Below, in pieces: positions 41,792 to 63,331 of a DNA stretch of 64,000 nucleotides; within the stretch, counting starts at the first letter, position 1, and each line of letters begins with the position of its first letter. A program made the translations under genes and the position numbers. The notes below the pieces were generated by a model that was not told the origin of the DNA, made no database searches, and saw only the letters and a program-made list of their open reading frames with translations. Source of the DNA: Fimicolochytrium jonesii. Its lineage: Eukaryota. The stretch spans positions 620,001-684,000 of the forward strand of contig NW_026515674.1 in the NCBI RefSeq assembly GCF_025526975.1, written 5' to 3'.

Positions 41792-44679
41792 ATGAGCAAG
41801 CAAATGGGAAAGACGCTTCTGCGTTCTGCGTAAGTACTTACCAACTCAGGTTGAGCAGAACGTCGGGGCCTCCCTCTCACATTTGCTCACTGCGAGACGT
41901 TTCCGTACAGCAAGAACTATACGAAAGGATATTCCGATATCCAAATCAAAGTTAGGTAGGTTACGTGCTCATCAATGCCCATCTCGACTGCGATAGTAGA
42001 CTTACATCCCTTGTCTGTAGGCAGGCGACGTCAAATGATCCGGTAGGGATTCACCACTTCTTCCGGCATTCAGGCTTCGTTGGCCACCCCGTAACCCCGC
42101 GTATTCAACATATTCAATTGCGTACTTTTACTTGTTCGAACATAGTGGGGACCGTCGGGGTCTTTGATGGCCGATATTTCCCAATCGACATACAATCAGT
42201 ATGTGCAGAAATGCCCTCATTCTCTTAGCCGACTCGCAACTTACCGAGAATATTCCCTATCTCCACTTTTCTCAGCCGAGATTTCCTTGAAATCATGGAA
42301 ATGGTTGATAAGCGATTGAACGATTCGGGAAAGAACTGGAGACATGTCTTCAAGGTTTGCGATTCATTTCGCGATCACGATTGTCTGCAGTTCATCTCTG
42401 ATTCTCTTCCCTTTGCAAAAGGCCCTGACTCTACTGGATTACTTGCTACACACCGGAGCGGAGGCTGTCATCGCATACGCAAGGGAAAACATACATGTCA
42501 TCAAAACGTTGAAAGAGTTTCAATACATTGATGATGATGGAAAAGACCAGGGAGCGAATGGTAAAAGGATGCGAATTTCATGAAGCGAGAACAGCCTCTC
42601 TGACCGATGTGTGTTGTCCTTTGGCAGTGCGTCAGAAGTGCAAGGACATAGTAGCCTTACTGGCAGACGAGACACGATTACGCGAAGCACGCCAGACACG
42701 GGCAGATATGCGGGGTCGCATGGGTGGCAGCGGATCAAGGCCAGAAAATGACGGTTCGGGTTCAGGCGCATACTATAATGAGGATTTTGAATTACAAAAA
42801 GCGCTTGAAGAAAGTAAGAAGACAGCGCAACAAGATCAGAAACGTAGAGCCGGAGAGGACAAGGAGTAAGCTTCAGATATTGCTTTTCGCAAACTGTTTC
42901 TGCTCCATCGGAAATCCTGATGTTCAAATGTTCTCAGGGAAGAAGAACTCCGACGAGCGTTGGAGCTTAGTGAGAAAGAGGCGATCGAAAGGCGTATGCG
43001 GGAAAGGGACGAAGCAGCGGCGAAAGCTGCTGCCGAACCAGCCAAGGACAACATCATCGATTTCTTTGGCGGTCTCGAAGACACCACTCCAGCAAACCCT
43101 TACGCCCAACAACCGCAACAAACACAAACCTCGTATGATCCATTCTCTGGATTTGGCGGGGCGGATCCCTTTGCTGCTCAGCAGCAGCAGCAATTGCAGC
43201 AGCAGTATGCATTGCAGCAGCAACAACAGCTGGCTCTCCAACAGCAGCTTGCTCAACAACAATTCCAGCAGAACCAAATGTTGCAAAATCAAATGCAAAA
43301 CTCCAACCCATTCGGTACGGCCCCGGCAAACCCTATGCAGGATCAACTCACCGGAAACAACGACGCACTGGCTCGTGGAAGGTAATTATAGCAAGTTGTG
43401 AAGCGCCGTACGCTTTTGGCGCAGACTCTCAAACATATCCCAACACAGTGGCCCGATCGATCCATTCGCGAGTCTTGCCGCTAGCCGCACAGGCGGGTAA
43501 GCATCCTCAATACTCGGTTGACCTCTCTGTCATGTGCTCTAAACTTATCCTCCCTTGCTGTAGCGCAAGCGGAGCAACGCAGTCGAATCCGTTCGGGGTA
43601 GCACAAGGGGCCGGGAACGACATTTTTGGGGGCGGCAATCAGCAGGTACTCCGAAATTTCCTTCAGAATGTTGTATCTTCACCCGTAACTAATGTCAAGG
43701 ATGGTGTATAGAGCCTCGCAAACCAGTCGACAGGTGGAGGATTTGGCAATGCCGCTCAAGTGTCCGCACACAACACTGGCAGTGGGTTTGGCGGATTCAA
43801 TCAGGGTCAGGCGCAGAACCTTGGAGGAGGCTTTGGAGGCTTTGGTCAGGGCGGACAAGCAATCCAGCAGCATAATACGGGCGGTAACTTGGGAAGCAAC
43901 TTGGGAGGTTTTGGTACCCAACCGCTCCAAGCCCACAACACAGGTGGACCATTTGGCAACAGGGGGGGTATTCCTGCACATCTGACTGGAGGAGGATTAG
44001 GCGGCTTTGGCGGCGCTGGATCCCAGGTAACAATGCCATTAGGCTTTTTTCATTCGAAAGGCATATGCTAACCATCTGATCCCGCGAGCAGCCTATTTCC
44101 CAGCACAACACAGGGAGTGGCTTCGGAACGCCCGCTCAAGGCACTGGTGGCTTCAACACACCAAACAAATCCGCCAACGACCTTGTCAACTTGGACGCCT
44201 CCAGTTTGATGAAGGGAAGCGGCTCAGGGGCCGCCAACAACTTTGGCCTCCCCGCCGCAAAGAATCCCTTCGCCACAGCCGGAACCAGTGCTGGTGGAAA
44301 ATTCCAATGGGAGGCGCCAAAACCCTCCCAGCCCACCCTCGCTCAACTTGCCACCCAAAACACCACTCAAAGCACATTCGGCGGTGGTGGCTTCAACGGT
44401 GCAGGCGGCAACAACAACAACGCTTTCGGTGGCATGCAGACCGGATTCGGCGGCGCTTTCCCACAACAACAGCAGCAACAGCAACAGCAGCAACCATTCT
44501 TCGGCGGCGGGGTTCAAGGCGGCCAAGGCTTCGGAAACCCCCAGCAAGGCGCCACATCTTTCGGTGGCCAACAACAGCAAGGGTTCCAGCAACAGCAAAA
44601 CGCGTTCGGCCAGAACCCATTTGGCGCTCAGCAAAACCAGCATAATCAGCAGCAAATGGGAGGTGGATCCTTCTTCTGA
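41792..44679 (+). CDS. ENT1: Epsin (ENTH domain, UIMs, NPF/DPF motifs, Q/G-rich tail)
   Basis: ATSNDPWGPSG, KRLNDSGKNWRHVFKAL, KTLKEFQYIDDDGKDQG, ELQKALEESKK, repeated NPF. Confidence 0.92.
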
Positions 44680-47390: not shown

Positions 47391-48791
47391 ATGTCCTCAC
47401 GAAAAGCCAAGTCGGGGAACGCCCTGACCGCCAAAGAGCAGACGGTACTCGATCGAATCAGGCAGCATCCTAAGGTACGTGGTCCAGAGGTGGCTGGTTA
47501 GTGTTTGCTGGTCTTTTCAACAGGCGAAAACTAACGTTTCGTGACTCGGTCTGTGGTTAGGGTATCGACCAAGATGCTCTGAGGAACGAACTTGAAGGGT
47601 GGGAGGCCAACGAAATCTTGGAGCACTTGAACTCACTCAGCTCGAAGGTGTGTTATCCTGCGCAAGAAACGGTGAAGTGCGGTGAAGAGAGCACACAGCT
47701 AAAAGTGTTCTCCACTTGTCTCAGCAATATGTCGACTTCATGGCGATGACAAAGACTGGAAAGCTTGCTGTGAAAGCTCGCTCAAATGAAGAGGCTACAA
47801 TGTAGGAGGCGCTCCGCCCTCTCCGAGCTGCAGGATTCCGCTAAATTTCTTCTCTTCTGCTCGCCATGCAGAGCGGGCGGTATGAAAGACGAGGAACGCA
47901 TCATCTACCGACTCGTTAAAGATGCAAAGAACAATGGAATATGGCTCAAACAGCTCAAGGATCGCTCCGGATTGCACACACAACTTGCCAATACGGTGAT
48001 CAAGAATCTGGAGAAAAAGAATATCATTAAATGGGTCAAACCGGTTAAGGTCTGTTGTCTAAGTGCTTCCTTTTGATTCTGATGGCTCTATTGATAAATC
48101 CATCCCGGCGCAGACTCCACATAAGAAGGTTTATATGCTATACGAGCTGGAACCTTCAACGGAACTGACAGGAGGAGCGTGGTATACAGACAACGAGATG
48201 GATATGGACTTCATCGAACAACTGTCCAAGCAGGTTCATAAATATATCGTTATGAAGGTATGCCTCCCAGTGCATTGTCGATCACCTTCCTATCCACTCA
48301 GATTAACGTCGCCCGTAATGCCTTCACAGAGCTATCCACCAAAAAACAAAGACGCCGTATACCCAGCAAGTCATTCCAACTACCCCACCGCATCCGCCAT
48401 CCACAAGTTCATCACGCAATCCGGGCTTACAACCGTTCCTCTTTCCGTCGCCGACGTCCAGGCCCTCCTCGACCGACTCTACTACGACGGCAAAGTGACG
48501 CGCCTGCAGAAAACTGGATATGCCACCAGCGAAGAGGAGGAATCCGCAGGCGAAGAAGAAGAGGTGATGGATCTTGATGATGATGACGATTTCAGGGGCG
48601 GCAAGGAGACGGTCCGTGATCTGCAGCATCATGCGTGGATGTATAAGGCTATTGGCGGAGCGGCCATCGAGGAGCGGAATGCGTGGACGGATATGCCTTG
48701 TGGGCGGTGCCCTGTGTTTGATTTCTGCACTGAGTCGGGGCCGGTCAATCCTTCGAAGTGTGTGTACTTCAAGGATTGGTTGGCCTTATGA
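47391..48791 (+). CDS. RPC34: RNA polymerase III subunit C34 (RPC6/POLR3F)
   Basis: NNGIWLKQLK, KKVYMLYELEPSTELTGGAWY, LLDRLYYDGKV, PCGRCPVFDFC..NPSKC Fe-S motif. Confidence 0.93.
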
Positions 48792-49031: not shown

Positions 49032-49894
49032 GTGAGCATCTTGGGTGAGCTGACGATTCCCGAGGACAAGTGCAAGGGTTACCAGCAGCTAATTGGTGAT
49101 GTTGACGAGCTGACCGTGCAAAACACTGCAAACCCCGCGGCCGAGCTGAACACTCCCTTGCCGTTCTTCTTTTGCCAGTCGTGGGGCCAGGCGCTCCCCA
49201 TCGTCTCGCTCATGTTCCACGAGGTGCGTATCAACTTCCAGCTTGCCACCTTCAACGAGCTCGTCATTACTGGAAACGGTATTCCGATTGCCAACCCGCC
49301 TAGCCTTGTGAATGTTGACCTGTTCATGACCTACGTCTACCTCGACGGTGTTGAGCGCAAGGTCTTTGCCCAATCGAGCCACGAGTACCTCGTGCAGCTG
49401 TGGCAGTACACTGGCACCGAGTCTGTTGCCTCTAGCAACCCCAAGATCAAGCTGACGTTCGCTCACCCGGCCAAGGAGATTATTTACCCGGCCAGTAAAG
49501 TGGCCAATGTTGACAACTATGCGAACAGACACTTTGACTACACTGATTCGGGAACTTCCGGAGACCACTACAACGGCAACGACCCGGTTGTTTCCGCCAA
49601 GCTCCTACTGAACACCACCGAGCGTCTGTCGGAACGCAGCTCGGCCTTCTTCTCGACGCTGCAGCCGTACTGGCACCACACCCGCTGCCCCGCACGTGGA
49701 ATCGGGCTGTACTCCTTTGCGCTCAACCCTGAGGCCCTGCAGCCCAGTGGCAGTTGTAACTTTTCGCGCCTGGAGAACGTCTCTCGCTCAACTTTTCTCT
49801 CGGCACTGGTACCGCCGCTGTCACCTTCTATATCATGGCCCGAGTGTACAACGTATTACGTGTGTCGGGCTTGGGTGGTTTGGCCTACGCCTCA
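49032..49894 (+). pseudogene. NCLDV double-jelly-roll major capsid protein, 5'-truncated and frameshifted
   Basis: ELT..K..GYQQLIG, PLPFFFCQSWGQALPIVSLMFHEVRINF, YVYLDGVERKVFAQSSHEYLVQLWQYTG, FAHPAKEI, YSFALNPEALQPSGSCNFSRLEN; after a frameshift at ~49782: SLNFSLG..YNVLRVSGLGGLAYAS. Confidence 0.93.
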
Positions 49895-49941
49895 ACCAGG
49901 GATGTGGGCAACCATCCCTACGCCTCAACCAGGGATGTGGG
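49884..49941. repeat. 25-bp direct repeat (cctacgcctcaaccagggatgtggg) x2 with an 8-bp spacer
   Basis: Exact copies at 49884-49908 and 49917-49941. Confidence 0.95.
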
Positions 49942-50142
49942 ATTTGGTGAGGGAGACAAGAGCTTCCTGGATCTCAGCGGATTCGACAGCGCCATCGAGG
50001 TGTGCTAGATTGTTTGAAGGAATAAGGGACATGGCGTGTACATATGGGGTTGTAAGGGTAGTTTGGGCCCACCCGGTTGCGTTACTATGCTTCACTGATT
50101 AACGAAATTATTCATTGATGCAAAGTTTCTATTAACATCATA

Positions 50143-52013
50143 CTAAATCAGGGAGTATGCGGGGTCAAGCTCATCATGCTCGGCAAAGCGGCTCTTGGGA
50201 CATTCAACGATACGCAAGATGCGACCGTCTGCGAGCTTTGCGTTTCCGCCCGCCTTCATTCGGTCCTTAATGTACTTGCGATTCTTTTCCTTGCCCATGC
50301 GTTTCCTCAAGTCTGTAGCTGTGCTGGCTTTGGCTACGAGCTTCTCGCCATGGTAGACGAGATAGGCGGGCTTTGCGTTGTTGTACATGGCCGGGAACTG
50401 GTCGTGCGCCGTGCTTTCTAGCTGATCAGCCGCGTCCGCCTCCACAAACTCGACAGGCCAGCGACTCTGTAATGTTTTTTTGACGACTTGTTCCCTAATG
50501 GCCTCGCAATTTCGCTGAAGACATTCTGCAAGCACAGCTACACTCGCATATTTCGCGAGCACCGTGCGGTCTGCTCGCGAGTCCGCTGGCGAGTCAGAAT
50601 ATACGACTAGCACCGGAGGGCCTGGGCGCTTCAGCACGACTGGTCCAGGGTCATCATCGAGCACAATACGCTTGATAGAGGCTAACTTCAAGTCAACAAG
50701 GGCATCAAACTCCTCTGACGCGGTTACCTCGCCTGAATATATGTTGAACTCTGATGCCACCAGCTTCTGTATGACCCATCGCTCATTCAGACAGTAGCGG
50801 CTCCCCGCAAAGCTCTGCAGCTTGGTGTGAAGGGCCGCCTTTGGTATTCCTAGACCAATCGCTAGCTCCTTGAAGCCGGCAAAAGTGCGGACGACTCGAC
50901 GAGAAAACCATACCACTGCGCATGATGTCGAAGCCGACCGGTGCTAGGCTCGCGGGCTTTATCAATGCCGTTTTCGCGGGCGGTATCACGCGGCTCTGGT
51001 GTAGGCTGTCGAGTAGATACAAGAGCGCCGTCTAGATTCTCGTTAAAAACCGATGAGACTTTCCATGCGTGTGCATACAGCGCTGGCAGCTGCATGTCCA
51101 GCTCAATACGGTTGCATTTCCAGCAGCACAGTTTCACGTTCTCTTCGTCGTTGTACAATAGTGTAGGGTTAACTCGGTCCGAACCACACATGCCGACCGC
51201 CTCGCACAGGTAGCATTCACCGGTCTGTTTTTGGAACGACTCGACGCCCGCCTTGCGCCCGCCAACCGATGGTCGTCCAGCGTTCACAAAGTTGCTGTTG
51301 ATCACAGCATCCATATCGAGCTCGGCGTCAGGCGTGTGCCTCCTTCGCACCGCATTAATCTGACACATCTGCCACACGTACTCCTCGGGTAATAACGTCC
51401 CCTTGAGAATGTTATCGAGATGGCACGCCGGTACGACATTGTTTTCAGAGTAACCCAGCCTGCTGTTCAGACGGTCGAGCCCGTTGAGTCAATCGCCCGC
51501 GTCTGGGAGAGCATCGCAGTAATGACACGCCTGTCCGATGAGCGTAAGCAGCGTGGCATCGTCTGTGAATGAGATGCGGCGGCTATCCGCTGATCGCTTG
51601 ATAGCTTTGAATCTATCGGCGACGGTGGTGCGCCGTTTGGTGTTGTACTGCGCGACGGCTTCAGGGTGCATTAACCGAAATCGCGCCTGGTCAAGCGCGT
51701 ACGTTTCGAGATATCCAGTCGGATCGAGCTCACGCTTGCGTTGGCGAAACGTCTCGTAATACTTTCGCGCGTTGAAGCAAACCTTACACTCGCTGGCCCA
51801 TCTATACTCGCTCCATCGAAATGCACCTCGTTCAAACGGCTTGTCGCACGTGCTGCACGGCTTTCCAGGGGTCTCGTTTCGATCCGCTGTGAGAGCCCGC
51901 TCAGCGTTTTGTGCGCGCCGTTGCGTGTTGTACGCGGTTTTGCACATATCTTGATTCTTTACGCGCTGATCGGCATCGTGCTCAACGTCACAGGCGACGC
52001 AGAGAAAACCCAT
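50143..52013 (-). pseudogene. Viral-type endonuclease-like gene: Zn fingers, two CxxC/HNH-like modules and three NUMOD1-like HTH repeats; one in-frame stop and one frameshift
   Basis: CHYCD..*LNGLDRLNSRLGYSENNVVPACHLDNILKG (TGA at 51491-51489; both flanking ORFs share a frame) and CYLCE..GSDRVNP..YNDEENVKLCCWKCN; frameshift ~50925-50945 into ORF 50143-50916. Confidence 0.75.
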
Positions 52014-52185
52014 CGGACCGCACCCGTTATATGCCCAATCCACAGCCCGCGAGGATATGTGATGATATCACTTGTCCGAATACCCAACCGCCCATCGAGC
52101 AGTCCCGCGAAACGATGTCGTTCAGTCGGCGTTAAGGGCGAATCCGCATCGGCAACAAAGTCGGTCGGTCCATTCTGCACGCAAC

Positions 52186-52635
52186 TCATCCGGCCAGAGG
52201 CACAGGTAGCGAGACGGTGGATCTGGTGCCGGCCGTTCTGTCATGAGTGTCGTTCAAAGCTTTGCGAAGCGTTTCCCAATCTTCATCGGTCAGGGTCTTT
52301 CGAAACTGAGCCAGCCGCTGAAGGCTCCGTTCTTGGAAGTAGGTTTTGGGACGACCGCTACTGTAGGTGCAGATCTTGACCTCGCTCGAAGCCTCACCCC
52401 AGGTATCACGGGAGGCCTGCACCACGCTCAGAGCTCTGATCAACTCCCTCGCGTCGAGAGAGACCCTGATATTTTCTTCGGCAATATCGTGGTCGGAGGA
52501 AGTGGCTACGTCGTCAGCGTTTTGCTGCGGCAATCGCCTTTGATTGTCGGGAGTGTTGAGGTCGAAAGAGAGATTCTGAGTGTTGATATGGAACGTTGAG
52601 TGGTTGCGTTCCGCAAACATTTCGTTGCTTTCCAT
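52186..52635 (-). CDS. Hypothetical 149-aa intronless ORF, viral or host origin unclear
   Basis: ATG-initiated ORF with a TATAAA-like element ~50 nt upstream; no motif recognised. Confidence 0.35.
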   Translation of the reverse strand: MESNEMFAERNHSTFHINTQNLSFDLNTPDNQRRLPQQNADDVATSSDHDIAEENIRVSLDARELIRALSVVQASRDTWGEASSEVKICTYSSGRPKTYFQERSLQRLAQFRKTLTDEDWETLRKALNDTHDRTAGTRSTVSLPVPLAG

Positions 52636-53052
52636 GCAAAAGGTTGAATTTGAGACAAGCGCAGTGTTGCCGAGTCCCGCGCTTTATAGCCGTCAAACAG
52701 ATTAAAAATTTCAGGGACACGTGAAACAATAGCACGTGGTCAGTGGAGCAACCGCACCTTTGACAGGTGACAAATTTGCGTTGCTTCAAATGATAAGGCC
52801 CTCCCCACCCGTTCTTCCTGTCAATTGGCATCCGCATAGGATCGCGGTTATCAGATCTGTGGGTCCTAGAATGTCATCATCGACTTGGGAGGTAAGACTT
52901 GGAAGGTAAGTGGGACCTAAAGGGATATCGAGCAGCAGGTGAAGATGAAGCCCCGGATCAGCTCAGAAGCGAGTAACGAATCAGCTACTCCGAGTAGCTT
53001 GTAGATAGGGTATTTGAGTGATTCGTCCGCCCCGTCCCATCCGGAAACGAAA

Positions 53053-54236
53053 ATGGAAGCACCAGACAGAGGCCACCTCAAAGCGGTCGTCCTCCAAGCC
53101 ATCGCAAAGGACTCTCAGAGCGAGCAGAGCGACGATATCTCGTTCCAACGAGCCATTCCCGCTGCTAGCTCCGAAGAAACCGCCGCGTCCTTAGAGCGCT
53201 TGTTGCAGTCCGATTTGAGTGTATTTTTGGGTGAGTTGTTCACATGCGCATGTTGGGCAGGCATAGTACGGCAGCAGCAACAAGACTACAGGGCGACCGC
53301 TTCTAACGTAGTCTGGGGCTCGTTCCACAGAAAAATATGGGAGATATCTCAGCAAGCAGGATTTAGCTCTTTTCGACCCATTTTCAGGTATGAGCCCCAG
53401 ATGCACATTGCTAATAACCATCGCAAAACTCATAGAGTTGTCCCCTTACAGAGAAGTACGAAGTCGCTCACTACCTCAGCCTCTACCGCACGCCCCTGCC
53501 CGCCATTACAACTACGCAACTACGCAACCGCCGCCTTGCTTACCTCACATCCCATCTTTCCCACACCGACTACTTTTCCCCCTCCAACCTGCGCACTCGG
53601 GCGCCGGAGCTCTACCACACCTACATTGGCCAGTATGAGGACGACTCGGGAGCCGCGTTCCCGGAGAGTATGGGGCTTGTGGATCGCATATATGAGAGCT
53701 GGGAGAAGGAGGTGGCGGGCGAGAGGGTGAGGAGGGAGCGGGAGGAGACGTTTGAGGAGTTTGATACGGAGAGCGAGGAGGATGGTGATGAGAGCGTCGA
53801 GGATGAGATGGAACCCGGGGGAGCCGATCCGTTACCACCGCCGGAACCAAGTGGGCCTGACGTCCCATCGAATCCGATGGCAGCGTCCACATTCACATCT
53901 ACGTCAGATTCAACAACGCCGCAAATATCCGAAGCTGAGAGGGAAGCCCTCGCGGCTGAGTTTACGGAAATTATGCGGCGGCGCTTCATTGACGGCAAAG
54001 ATGTGGGTTTTCTGTTCATCTGTACGGGCTTCTGCTATCTGCGCTAATGATCTTGTCGGTTGCAGTCGGATCACTTTGATTATTCGCCCGTAGACAGTAA
54101 TCCGGACTATGGCATGTTCTCAGCGGAAGCACGGCATGACCGCGACGAGGCGTATTTTGACGCCGACGATGACGACGGGGACGGGAATTCGATGGACCCC
54201 TTCCAATGCTTGAAGGAGGGGGAGTACGACTATTAA
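53053..54236 (+). CDS. CCDC97-like protein (DUF2052)
   Basis: LLQSDLSVFL..YG, LRNRRLAYL..DYFS..RAPELYHTYIGQY, EFTEIMRRRFIDGKD..FDYSPVDSNPDY; several introns. Confidence 0.85.
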
Positions 54237-61552: not shown

Positions 61553-62765
61553 TTACTCTGGTATGTCCAGGAGATCATGCAGCGCGTCGGCCAGCCCGTA
61601 GTCCGCAGCAACCTCGCGGGCCCGATATAACGGAATCCTGGAAACAACAGTCCACTTAGCCTCGGATCCGAACCCCGACAGCGCGAATTTGAAAAATTCA
61701 AACATACCAAGTTCCTTGATATTTCCCGTACCCGCCCTGAATCTTCTCATGTTCACCCTGATGCACCTCCCGTTCCAAAACCTTCGTCCTCCGGCTCTTT
61801 TCCATTCCCGCCGCTTTCAATATATGCGTAGCGTTAATCCACGAATCTGATTTCCGCCGCATTACTCCTACGCCATTCGGGGCCTCGAGTTCATAGACTC
61901 GGGTATTCGAGTAGGTCGCTTCGTATATCCCTTCGCGGGGGGGGTTGAAAGACGCGAGCTGGCGGGCCGGTAGCGACGGTGCGCCGCGACGGCTAGGGGT
62001 GGGGTTACTGCCAAACGTGCCGAAATTGCCTGGACTGTTGCCGCCGGTTGTGTAGTTATTGGAATTGCCGCGTGAGTATCCTCGCCGAATTGGGATAGGG
62101 AAGTTAGAGGGATTGAATGCTGGGACAGAGACGGCTGGATGCATGAACTGCTGCTGTGCGTATGGTGTTTGTGTTGTATATGGCATCGACGTATAAGCGT
62201 GGAGTTGGGGATTCGCATGTTGTGGGTGACCGGCCAACGTAGTTGGGTAGAAAGGTGCCTGCTGTAGCGCTGGCTGCTGATGCAGCTGATACTGAGTGGG
62301 AGGTACCGATATTGGATTGGCAGTTGAGTAATAGTTTTGCTGCAGCGGTGGCATCGTCAGTCCCCCAAGGTGGCTCAAGGCTAGCGCTGGGTAGTTAAGC
62401 TGTTGTGCCAATGAGGTCCCAGTCATCATCTGCGTCATTTCATGCGCTGCGCCTGACCGGACTGCGGGCGTCTGCGCTGAAAACGATGGCGCATTGACCG
62501 AGGACGTGCCTGCAGAAGGGACCTGCGTAACGTGTGGTGCAGCTGTCGGCATCGGAGCAAGCGCATATCGCGGATCTTTCCATGGCTCATATGGTGGGTG
62601 GGGCAGTGGAGGAACAAGGGCGGTTGGGTATACTGTCGGTGGTGTCGGTGGTCGTGCTGGAAGGAGAAGGAAGTCTTCCGAGGAACCGTCGTCGTTTTCG
62701 TCTCGCAAGATGTTGAGGTGAGGTTGAGGGGGTGGCAAAGGAAGGGAGACAGTTGCGGTAGCCAT
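61553..62765 (-). CDS. APSES/KilA-N DNA-binding protein (Mbp1/Swi4-type domain) at the C-terminus, no ankyrin repeats
   Basis: IYEATYSNTRVYE..VMRRKSDSWINATHILKAAG..RTKVLEREV..HEKIQGGYGKYQGTW|IPLYRAREVA; one intron ~61639-61705. Confidence 0.9.
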
Positions 62766-63331
62766 TTTGAAGAGTCCGAACTCTCCGCTGCGTTTTCAAC
62801 CGTCTCTAAGCTTGGAGCCACTGAAGCGGCGATCGATAACTCTGCTGTAATTGGGTAGCGGGATGTCCGCCGCTAAGCCAATTATCGTTTTGTAGTGAGG
62901 AGCCTATCAGTGAGAAAAGCCGACACGCATATGTAAGAGCGAAAGTGGTTTCTACCGAGTTCTCATGTTGGTCAGCAATGCGGCGGATTTTAAGAGTGCT
63001 GGTTCGATTCCCGACACTAGCAAAAACCCTCACGAAGGTGCAGCATCAACTTCAGCACAGCAGTAAAAAGGTCGGATTCTAGAGATTTCATAATAAAGTC
63101 ACTTTCTTCTGAAGCAAACCTCCTCCATCGCCGGTCGCACAATTGACGTTTGTGAAGCTCTGATGTTTTTGCAACATGATATGCTTTATTATTTTTCGTA
63201 TGTATATACAAAATTGTTGGCGACATGAAGTTGCTTCGTTGCCATACCCCAAAGGACCTTCCCAATGCTCCCACATGCGATCGAATCATTCCATATTGTT
63301 AAGCTAACTCTCCAGATTTTGGGACAGCGAT

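What the first reader, a model, noticed from the sequence alone, without database searches (positions are those of the whole stretch)
49032..52700. Endogenous giant-virus (NCLDV) relic inserted between RPC34 and CCDC97 in a fungal chromosome
Seen: an intronless island in an otherwise intron-rich region, carrying capsid motifs plus a convergent viral-type HNH gene, with an AT-rich spacer at ~50095-50145. Established: these motifs are diagnostic of the Nucleocytoviricota major capsid protein, and NCLDV relics have been reported in zoosporic fungi (proposed Mycodnaviridae), a group known essentially from host-genome relics. Inference: this is a fossil of a giant virus that infected this lineage, possibly an undescribed viral clade, integrated in a gene-dense housekeeping region.
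Basis: partly seen in the sequence, partly recalled or inferred. Interest (0 to 1): 0.92.

Follow-up and report, generated by a model that had tools for sequence, protein, structure and literature searches.

The report
Fungal giant-virus fossil with capsid nuclease
Between two intact fungal housekeeping genes lies a broken half of a giant-virus capsid gene facing a broken DNA-cutting gene, likely the fossil of an already described fungus-infecting virus family, and the cutter belongs to a family that sits right behind capsid genes in many giant viruses and likely spreads there as a selfish element.

Summary
Confirmed: 49032-49894 (+) is a Nucleocytoviricota major capsid protein (MCP) fragment. 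It lacks about 115 N-terminal codons, changes frame near 49785 and has no stop. Facing it is a broken zinc-ribbon/double His-Me nuclease gene with three in-frame stops. RPC34 and CCDC97 are intact. The MCP groups with Gonapodya MCPs and a Mycodnaviridae (former IM_02) genome in 2 of 3 trees and shares two signature residues, so an undescribed clade is not supported. Lone MCPs on chytrid host contigs are already published. Of the 80 viral loci most like this nuclease, 66 have it within 1 kb of an MCP 3' end. It is optional (8 of 75 MCP loci), its tree conflicts with the MCP tree (p-AU 1e-9), and group I introns occupy the same last codons. This fits a free-standing homing endonuclease aimed at the capsid gene end; cleavage is untested. 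Five searches found no paper on it, but this scan has noted it repeatedly. Integration could not be checked with reads.

The parts
47391..48791 (+). Host RPC34 (RNA polymerase III subunit), 6 exons, 343 aa, intact; left flank
   Evidence: Pfam PF05158 E 1.6e-49; spliced frame open
49032..49784 (+). NCLDV major capsid protein fragment, main frame; about 115 N-terminal codons missing, no start codon of its own
   Evidence: no capsid similarity left of 49032 in three frames
49784..49894 (+). Last 37 codons of the MCP in another frame (frame change in a TC run at about 49780-49790); no stop codon after the capsid end
49884..49941 (+). Exact 25-nt direct repeat (49884-49908, 49917-49941; period 33) that includes the last four MCP codons; likely a repair scar
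   Evidence: the only exact repeat of 20 nt or more within 100 nt of its copy in the whole window
49895..50008 (+). 37-codon read-through tail in the MCP end frame (GC3 0.73, MCP 0.75); origin unknown; the opposite register also reads open for 35 codons
   Evidence: no match in the fetched loci
50095..50150 (.). AT-rich spacer between the convergent viral genes
50143..50943 (-). 266-codon open frame, predicted NUMOD1-like DNA-binding repeats; likely the C-terminal part of the nuclease gene after a frame change near 50950-50915
   Evidence: ESM Atlas NUMOD1 clusters at 0.87-0.89, lead only; model low overall (pLDDT 42) with a strand-strand-helix-helix-strand-strand unit at residues 191-250; no significant hit
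50862..52259 (-). Broken nuclease gene: N-terminal zinc ribbons plus two PacI-like His-Me (D-R...Y...N...CxxCN) motifs; in-frame TGA at 52122-52124, 52068-52070 and 51489-51491; one zinc-ligand Cys of motif 1 is replaced
52186..52635 (-). 149-codon orphan ORF; N-terminal part of the nuclease gene, another viral gene or host remnant: unassigned
   Evidence: No usable hit in Pfam, PHROGs, ESM Atlas or fetched loci
53053..54236 (+). Host CCDC97-like gene, 4 exons, 318 aa, intact; right flank
   Evidence: Pfam PF09747 E 1.4e-27; spliced frame open

Best explanation
The island is a broken capsid gene fragment plus a broken nuclease gene of a giant virus, likely of the Mycodnaviridae lineage, that likely entered this fungal chromosome as one contiguous piece of viral DNA and has since decayed into a likely non-functional fossil. 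Shown: the two genes, their lesions, the intact host flanks, the affinity of the MCP, and that relatives of the nuclease sit directly behind MCP genes in free viruses, mostly facing them as here. Inferred: (1) the DNA was captured by break repair or left behind when a larger provirus was deleted, since there are no terminal repeats, target duplication or integrase; (2) in the living virus the nuclease acted as a free-standing homing endonuclease that would cut the conserved last codons of capsid genes lacking it and be copied in during repair, sometimes alongside ORF-less group I introns at the same site; (3) the 25-nt duplication at the capsid end is a repair scar whose cause is open.
For: MCP identity. 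Nearest proteins among 1.84 billion representatives: an environmental protein at 55% and a Gonapodya prolifera MCP at 46%. Clade with the IM_02 genome L314, SH-aLRT 98; two signature residues in 7 of 7 clade rows and 0 of 44 others. Decay: truncation, frame change, lost stop, three TGA. Native layout: nuclease family in 8 of 75 MCP-anchored viral loci, all 87-449 nt behind the MCP match and none elsewhere in 748 kb of flank; 10 of 80 MCP-anchored metagenome loci; 79 of 80 nuclease-anchored loci hold an MCP; ranked by likeness to the window's protein, 66 of 80 loci, 38 of 50 clusters and 39 of the best 40 lie within 1 kb of an MCP 3' end, 34 of those 39 convergent. Mobility: the nuclease tree rejects a 16-row MCP clade, p-AU 1e-9; both orientations occur. 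Group I introns at the capsid end in 6 of 14 hand-picked loci, with the nuclease outside the intron, after the last exon. PacI is the nearest solved structure. No junction repeat beyond chance.
Against: No reads or genome were available, so integration is not shown directly. The careful 51-row tree left the window's MCP outside the supported IM_02/Gonapodya clade, in a polytomy, and its bootstrap had not settled. Only one marker gene exists here, whereas the family is defined on seven. The window's nuclease is at most 28% identical to any relative in the alignment and unplaced in the tree. Structural relatives occur in pandoraviruses and pithoviruses, and 14 of 80 loci lack an adjacent MCP end, so the wider family is not capsid-bound. 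The L314 Mycodnaviridae locus has the intron but no such nuclease behind it. MCP and nuclease identities still correlate (Spearman 0.36), and one clade of about 32 loci keeps the gene throughout, as a vertically kept gene would. No leftover capsid end flanks the nuclease in the six MCP-nuclease loci listed. Cleavage is untested.
Confidence: 0.72

Rival explanations
1. Same relic, but the nuclease is an ordinary conserved viral gene (packaging, DNA processing or DNA binding) kept beside the capsid gene by synteny, not a homing element.
For: About 32 related loci keep it in the same place; MCP and nuclease identities correlate; the motif has D-R instead of D-H, so activity is not guaranteed; HNH proteins with packaging roles are cited in PMC12220804 (passages).
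Against: Present in only 8 of 75 and 10 of 80 MCP loci; both orientations; tree conflict p-AU 1e-9; introns in the same codons. PacI has the same D-R...Y pattern and is described as using a tyrosine in place of the histidine (PMC3384342, passages).
Confidence: 0.15
2. Assembly chimera: DNA of a virus in the culture was joined to host contigs.
For: No reads could be laid on the junctions; such viruses do occur in chytrid cultures (PMC13533422).
Against: A truncated, frame-shifted capsid gene without a stop is not compatible with a replicating virus; both host genes are complete; the window has no N; no shared repeat at the junctions beyond chance; GC matches the host.
Confidence: 0.05
3. The relic comes from a separate, undescribed virus family near but outside Mycodnaviridae.
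For: The window's MCP and P0102 form their own pair (100/99) and are 45-51% identical to IM_02-clade MCPs; not joined to them in the careful tree.
Against: Joined in two other trees at support 98; two private signature residues shared; NCLDV paralogous capsids diverge this much within one genome (established knowledge; two Gonapodya MCPs differ in placement).
Confidence: 0.06
4. The host has domesticated the fragment and expresses a capsid-derived protein, as the public gene model P0101 implies.
For: A 371-aa model exists in the protein library; the main frame stays open for 251 codons.
Against: The model starts mid-domain, runs through the frame change into unrelated sequence and ends in the antisense strand of the nuclease gene; no promoter or start for the fragment is evident.
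Confidence: 0.02

Closest known systems
Mycodnaviridae and lone-MCP endogenous elements of zoosporic fungi (Myers et al. 2026, PMC13533422; parts 1-4 of 8, the supporting-information legends and passages read)
   Same: NCLDV MCP on a contig of fungal genes with host-like GC; MCP related to an IM_02/MY_02 genome and to Gonapodya MCPs.
   Different: Only about 3.6 kb, broken, no polymerase, ATPase, integrase or terminal repeats in the window; carries a second viral gene, whereas the paper's three lone cases list MCP as the only viral gene; the paper's text does not contain 'endonuclease'. I did not establish whether this window is one of the paper's cases; its S1 Figure and S1 Table are pictures I could not read.
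Gonapodya prolifera viral islands (PMC5294986, passages)
   Same: Small NCLDV gene islands with an MCP amid eukaryotic genes in a zoosporic fungus.
   Different: Those MCPs are annotated as long frames and one lies beside chitinase genes; this one is truncated and lies beside a nuclease.
F-CphI and the psbA group I intron of cyanophage S-PM2, collaborative homing; intronless homing by free-standing phage endonucleases (PMC6083498, passages)
   Same: Optional, free-standing His-Me finger nuclease next to a conserved gene whose target region can carry a group I intron.
   Different: Eukaryotic giant virus and capsid 3' end as site; two tandem nuclease motifs with D-R and Tyr instead of the Endo VII His motif; no cleavage data; no intron in the window itself.
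PacI restriction endonuclease (PDB 3ldy)
   Same: Same D-R...Y...N...CxxCN motif and nearest solved fold (profile E 9e-4, Foldseek E 7.5e-3).
   Different: PacI is a 142-aa bacterial homodimer; this family has two motifs in one chain plus zinc ribbons.
Intron- and intein-encoded homing endonucleases of Bodo saltans virus (PMC5871332, passages)
   Same: Homing nucleases aimed at essential genes of giant viruses, proposed to act in competition between viruses.
   Different: Those sit inside introns of RNA polymerase genes; this family stands outside, behind the capsid gene.

Membership tests
Nucleocytoviricota major capsid protein | Capsid_N plus Capsid_NCLDV domains above curated cut-offs | tested here: met
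   58 and 133 bits against cut-offs 24 and 34.8
Nucleocytoviricota major capsid protein | Complete double jelly-roll reading frame | tested here: not met
   N-terminus missing, frame change, no stop; a fossil of the gene, not a working one
Mycodnaviridae (MY_02, former IM_02) | Placement in the concatenated GVOG7 tree (3 or more of 7 markers) | not testable with these tools
   No other viral marker among 104 further ORFs scanned with Pfam (the 104 are the window's frames of 125 aa or more outside 44-58 kb plus three inside); no genome held
Mycodnaviridae (MY_02, former IM_02) | MCP groups with a known member | tested here: inconclusive
   One clade with L314 (IM_02) at SH-aLRT 98 in the 32-row tree and two shared signature residues; polytomy in the 51-row tree; no Allomyces MCP was identified among my hits
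Mycodnaviridae (MY_02, former IM_02) | Zoosporic fungal host | tested here: inconclusive
   Fungal host supported by spliceosomal introns and a KilA-N/APSES exon (the SBF/MBF label is recalled); lineage within fungi not determined
Mycodnaviridae provirus | Large integrated genome with inverted terminal repeats and integrase | tested here: not met
   3.6 kb only; no terminal repeats; no integrase in the frames scanned
Endogenous viral element | Physical linkage to host DNA shown by reads | not testable with these tools
   No sequencing run was listed; indirect signs only
Free-standing homing endonuclease | Nuclease motif of a homing-type fold | tested here: met
   His-Me finger twice; the window's copy is broken by stops
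Free-standing homing endonuclease | Optional presence at a fixed site beside a conserved gene | tested here: met
   8 of 75 and 10 of 80 MCP loci; 66 of 80 nuclease loci at an MCP 3' end
Free-standing homing endonuclease | Lateral movement between lineages | tested here: met
   AU test p 1e-9 on 28 of 30 rows, window and L159 left out as long branches; LG+G4, quick search; the group came from the MCP tree but I had seen a first nuclease tree. Holds for the family, not shown for the window's copy
Free-standing homing endonuclease | Site-specific cleavage of the empty allele and immunity of its own | not testable with these tools
   Needs a bench assay
Collaborative homing (F-CphI type) | Group I intron in the target site of the same allele | tested here: not met
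   No intron in the window; present in relatives, 6 of 14 picked loci

The most novel reading that the evidence does not exclude
Giant viruses, including the fungal Mycodnaviridae, carry an undescribed family of free-standing, PacI-like double His-Me homing endonucleases that attack the last codons of the major capsid gene, with ORF-less group I introns sheltering that site. This relic is a frozen copy of that cassette from a fungal virus, and the 25-nt duplication, which begins 3 nt from the intron site of the Mycodnaviridae relative L314, is the scar of a cut at that target.
Probability: 0.45. Interest if true: 0.62.

Novelty: new member of a known kind. Interest (0 to 1): 0.4.

Why it matters
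As a viral fossil it adds one more chytrid-type case to a group described in 2026, and it shows that a 'lone capsid' relic can hold a second viral gene that profile screens miss (no Pfam hit for the window's copy). The wider value lies in the nuclease family: if it homes to the capsid gene end, giant viruses fight over their most conserved structural gene as T4-like phages do over theirs, which is directly testable with intact environmental copies and would add a new nuclease architecture. That pattern is better studied in intact viral genomes than in this dead copy.

Tried and rejected
No genome held, so no genome-wide scan for PolB, A32, VLTF3 or D5 and no synteny check. Sequencing runs: none was listed, no RNA holder listed. 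Single-protein locus scans with the MCP fragment found nothing. Terminal repeats or a target duplication at the island ends: longest shared word 7 nt, as in random pairs. RNA families in the island: none at the curated threshold. CpG loss in the island: none, observed/expected 0.91-1.38 in the coding parts. A separate minus-strand gene start at 50032-49928 was considered; the plus frame fits MCP codon use better and neither has a match, left open. The 266-codon frame: no homolog among 1243 candidates of 146-466 aa, single-sequence model too poor for a significant fold match. The 149-codon orphan: nothing usable. Leftover capsid ends flanking the nuclease, as in earlier scan notes: not seen in six MCP-nuclease loci nor on the far side of the window's nuclease. 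A first IQ-TREE run on 182 rows did not finish. The wide VIA fold search was not run. Literature on a capsid-end homing nuclease in giant viruses: five full-text searches, judged from listings and abstract starts plus passages of PMC5871332 and PMC12220804, found no description; subscription papers are not covered.
Full report
Observation. The island lies between two intact host genes. RPC34 (47391-48791) splices to an open 343-aa frame with five GT-AG introns and CCDC97 (53053-54236) to 318 aa with three; both pass Pfam cut-offs. A KilA-N/APSES exon at 61701-62795 supports a fungal host (the SBF/MBF reading is recalled). Among 104 further frames scanned with Pfam, no viral marker turned up. 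The window has no N. I did not determine the host lineage.

The capsid gene. 49032-49784 (+) matches Capsid_N (E 1e-15) and Capsid_NCLDV (E 1.3e-38) and PBCV-1 capsid chains. It aligns from about residue 120 of full-length relatives, and nothing left of 49032 resembles a capsid in any plus frame. The last 37 codons lie in another frame after a TC run near 49785 and match viral MCP ends. No stop follows; the frame runs on for 37 codons through an exact 25-nt repeat (49884-49908, 49917-49941), the only such close repeat of 20 nt or more in the window. The library holds a 371-aa gene model of this locus (P0101) that reads through the break and ends antisense to the nuclease gene; I take it as an artefact of automatic annotation.

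Affinity. Of 5232 hits among 1.84 billion representatives, the best after the window itself are an environmental protein (P0102, 55%) and a Gonapodya prolifera MCP (P0103, 46%). Two more Gonapodya proteins are among the 30 hits I looked up (P0115, P0133). The supplement of PMC8575486 lists three IM_02 genomes, which PMC13533422 now treats as Mycodnaviridae. One of them, GVMAG-M-3300015360-128, came in as L314. Trees on the unbroken 251 residues: FastTree, 182 of 194 rows, joins window, P0102, P0103 and P0104 at 98 (L314 not yet in the set). IQ-TREE quick, 32 rows, joins these with L156, L157 and L314 at 98. IQ-TREE careful, 51 rows, keeps window plus P0102 (100/99) apart from the five others (100/99) in a polytomy, with an unsettled bootstrap. 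Two residues are shared by all 7 rows of the group and 0 of 44 others. The best reading is Mycodnaviridae or its immediate neighbourhood; formal membership needs markers that are not here.

The second gene. The minus strand from 52259 to 50862 holds one frame with three TGA stops. Read with X, it matches PHROG endonucleases, one library protein (P0100, 1 of 4824 candidates) and a profile of viral relatives at E 5e-38. It has zinc ribbons and two copies of a C-x-Y-C, G-x-D-R, Y, N, C-x-x-C-N motif; one zinc-ligand Cys of the first copy is replaced. A model on a 33-row alignment is confident (pLDDT 81); its nearest viral structures are unnamed or 'divergent HNH' proteins of many NCLDVs (46 at E 0.001 or better), and its nearest solved structure is PacI by sequence profile (E 9e-4) and by fold (E 7.5e-3, below significance). 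PMC3384342 (passages) describes PacI as using a tyrosine in place of the histidine base. A further 266 open codons (50943-50146) follow in another frame with the first ATG far in; they resemble NUMOD1 clusters as a lead only. A 149-codon ORF upstream is unassigned.

The pairing is native to the virus. The window's frame finds relatives in 8 of 75 MCP-anchored IMG/VR loci. All 8 lie 87-449 nt behind the MCP match, and a profile built from six of them plus P0100 finds none elsewhere in 748 kb of flank. It finds 10 of 80 MCP-anchored metagenome loci. In the reverse test, 79 of 80 nuclease-anchored loci hold an MCP; the miss has 98 nt of flank, two lie 3.6 kb away, and about 30 rows are close kin of one seed; the 80 form 16 clusters at 60% identity, each beside an MCP end. 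Now 66 of 80 loci and 38 of 50 clusters lie within 1 kb of an MCP 3' end; 3 have an MCP further off, 5 have none and 6 have none with short flanks. Of the best 40, 39 are adjacent and 34 of these face the MCP, as in the window. Against a strict tie: structural relatives exist in pandoraviruses and pithoviruses, and the window's copy is at most 28% identical to the aligned relatives and unplaced.

Mechanism in the virus (inferred). The gene is optional, occurs in both orientations, and its tree conflicts with that of the neighbouring MCP: nucleases beside a 16-row MCP clade are rejected as one clade (p-AU 1e-9; 28 of 30 rows, window and L159 left out), although identities still correlate (Spearman 0.36). 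Group I introns lie at the capsid end in 6 of 14 loci picked for having gaps. A split restoring the capsid end was found in 8 of 9 loci, ambiguous in one, and the nuclease starts after the last exon. This is the layout of intronless and collaborative homing as described for F-CphI and psbA (PMC6083498, passages). In L314 the intron is ORF-less, no nuclease follows, and it sits in the Tyr codon near the end; the window's duplication begins 3 nt before the matching position. That is compatible with a cut-and-repair scar but equally with ordinary repair during decay, and the repeat extends 13-14 nt past the capsid end. The window has no intron.

How it got into the host (inferred). No terminal repeat, target duplication or integrase is present. 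A truncated capsid gene cannot belong to a replicating virus, the host genes are whole, and GC matches the host, so a real, old insertion is more likely than a chimera. It could be captured DNA or the residue of a deleted provirus; PMC13533422 shows integrated viruses of about 350 kb that can be lost. Reads were not available.

What is known. PMC13533422 found MCPs in 17 of 141 fungi, three of them as the only viral gene on host-like contigs; PMC5294986 had reported Gonapodya islands. The relic is therefore a new member of a known kind, and may be one of the published cases, which I did not try to establish. Five searches found no paper on a capsid-end homing nuclease in giant viruses. Earlier AI notes of this scan report the same idea in 57 findings from at least 55 genomes (first seen, after my own positional result); they are leads, not support.

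Verdict. Real feature, first reading partly right. Interest 0.40: the fossil is ordinary, while its nuclease links fungal giant viruses to a likely selfish system that seems unpublished but is better studied elsewhere.

Noticed in passing
window 61701-62795 (-): Exon with a KilA-N/APSES domain (Pfam E 3.6e-6), resembling fungal SBF/MBF factors (label recalled); host gene, not part of the island.
   Followed up: partly
window 52718-52738: Two CACGTG motifs 15 nt apart upstream of CCDC97 (11 in the whole window); may mark the host promoter and so the right limit of the island.
   Followed up: no
window 49465-49473 and 49486-49494: A 9-nt direct repeat inside the MCP fragment at a place where conserved residues of relatives are replaced; possibly another small repair scar.
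   Followed up: no
P0101: A public gene model reads the capsid fragment through its frame change and splices into the antisense strand of the nuclease gene; likely spurious.
   Followed up: partly
L314/L158 1623-2036 and about 2780-2890: The IM_02 (Mycodnaviridae) genome has an ORF-less 413-nt group I intron in the last codons of its MCP, and a short tandem-repeat array further downstream.
   Followed up: partly
L156 1884-2187: The closest metagenomic MCP locus (49%) has a zinc-finger ORF behind the MCP, cut by the contig end; no significant match to the nuclease family.
   Followed up: partly
L025 7803 and 10940: Extra short copies of the capsid end about 57 nt behind two tandem MCP genes, without this nuclease.
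   Followed up: no
L267: A 1.26-Mb giant-virus record also carries the nuclease 89 nt from an MCP end, convergent, so the layout occurs in very large genomes.
   Followed up: no
window 43712-44679 (+): Gly/Phe/Gln-rich frames with repeated short Q-H-N-T-G words; host low-complexity gene, no Pfam hit.
   Followed up: no
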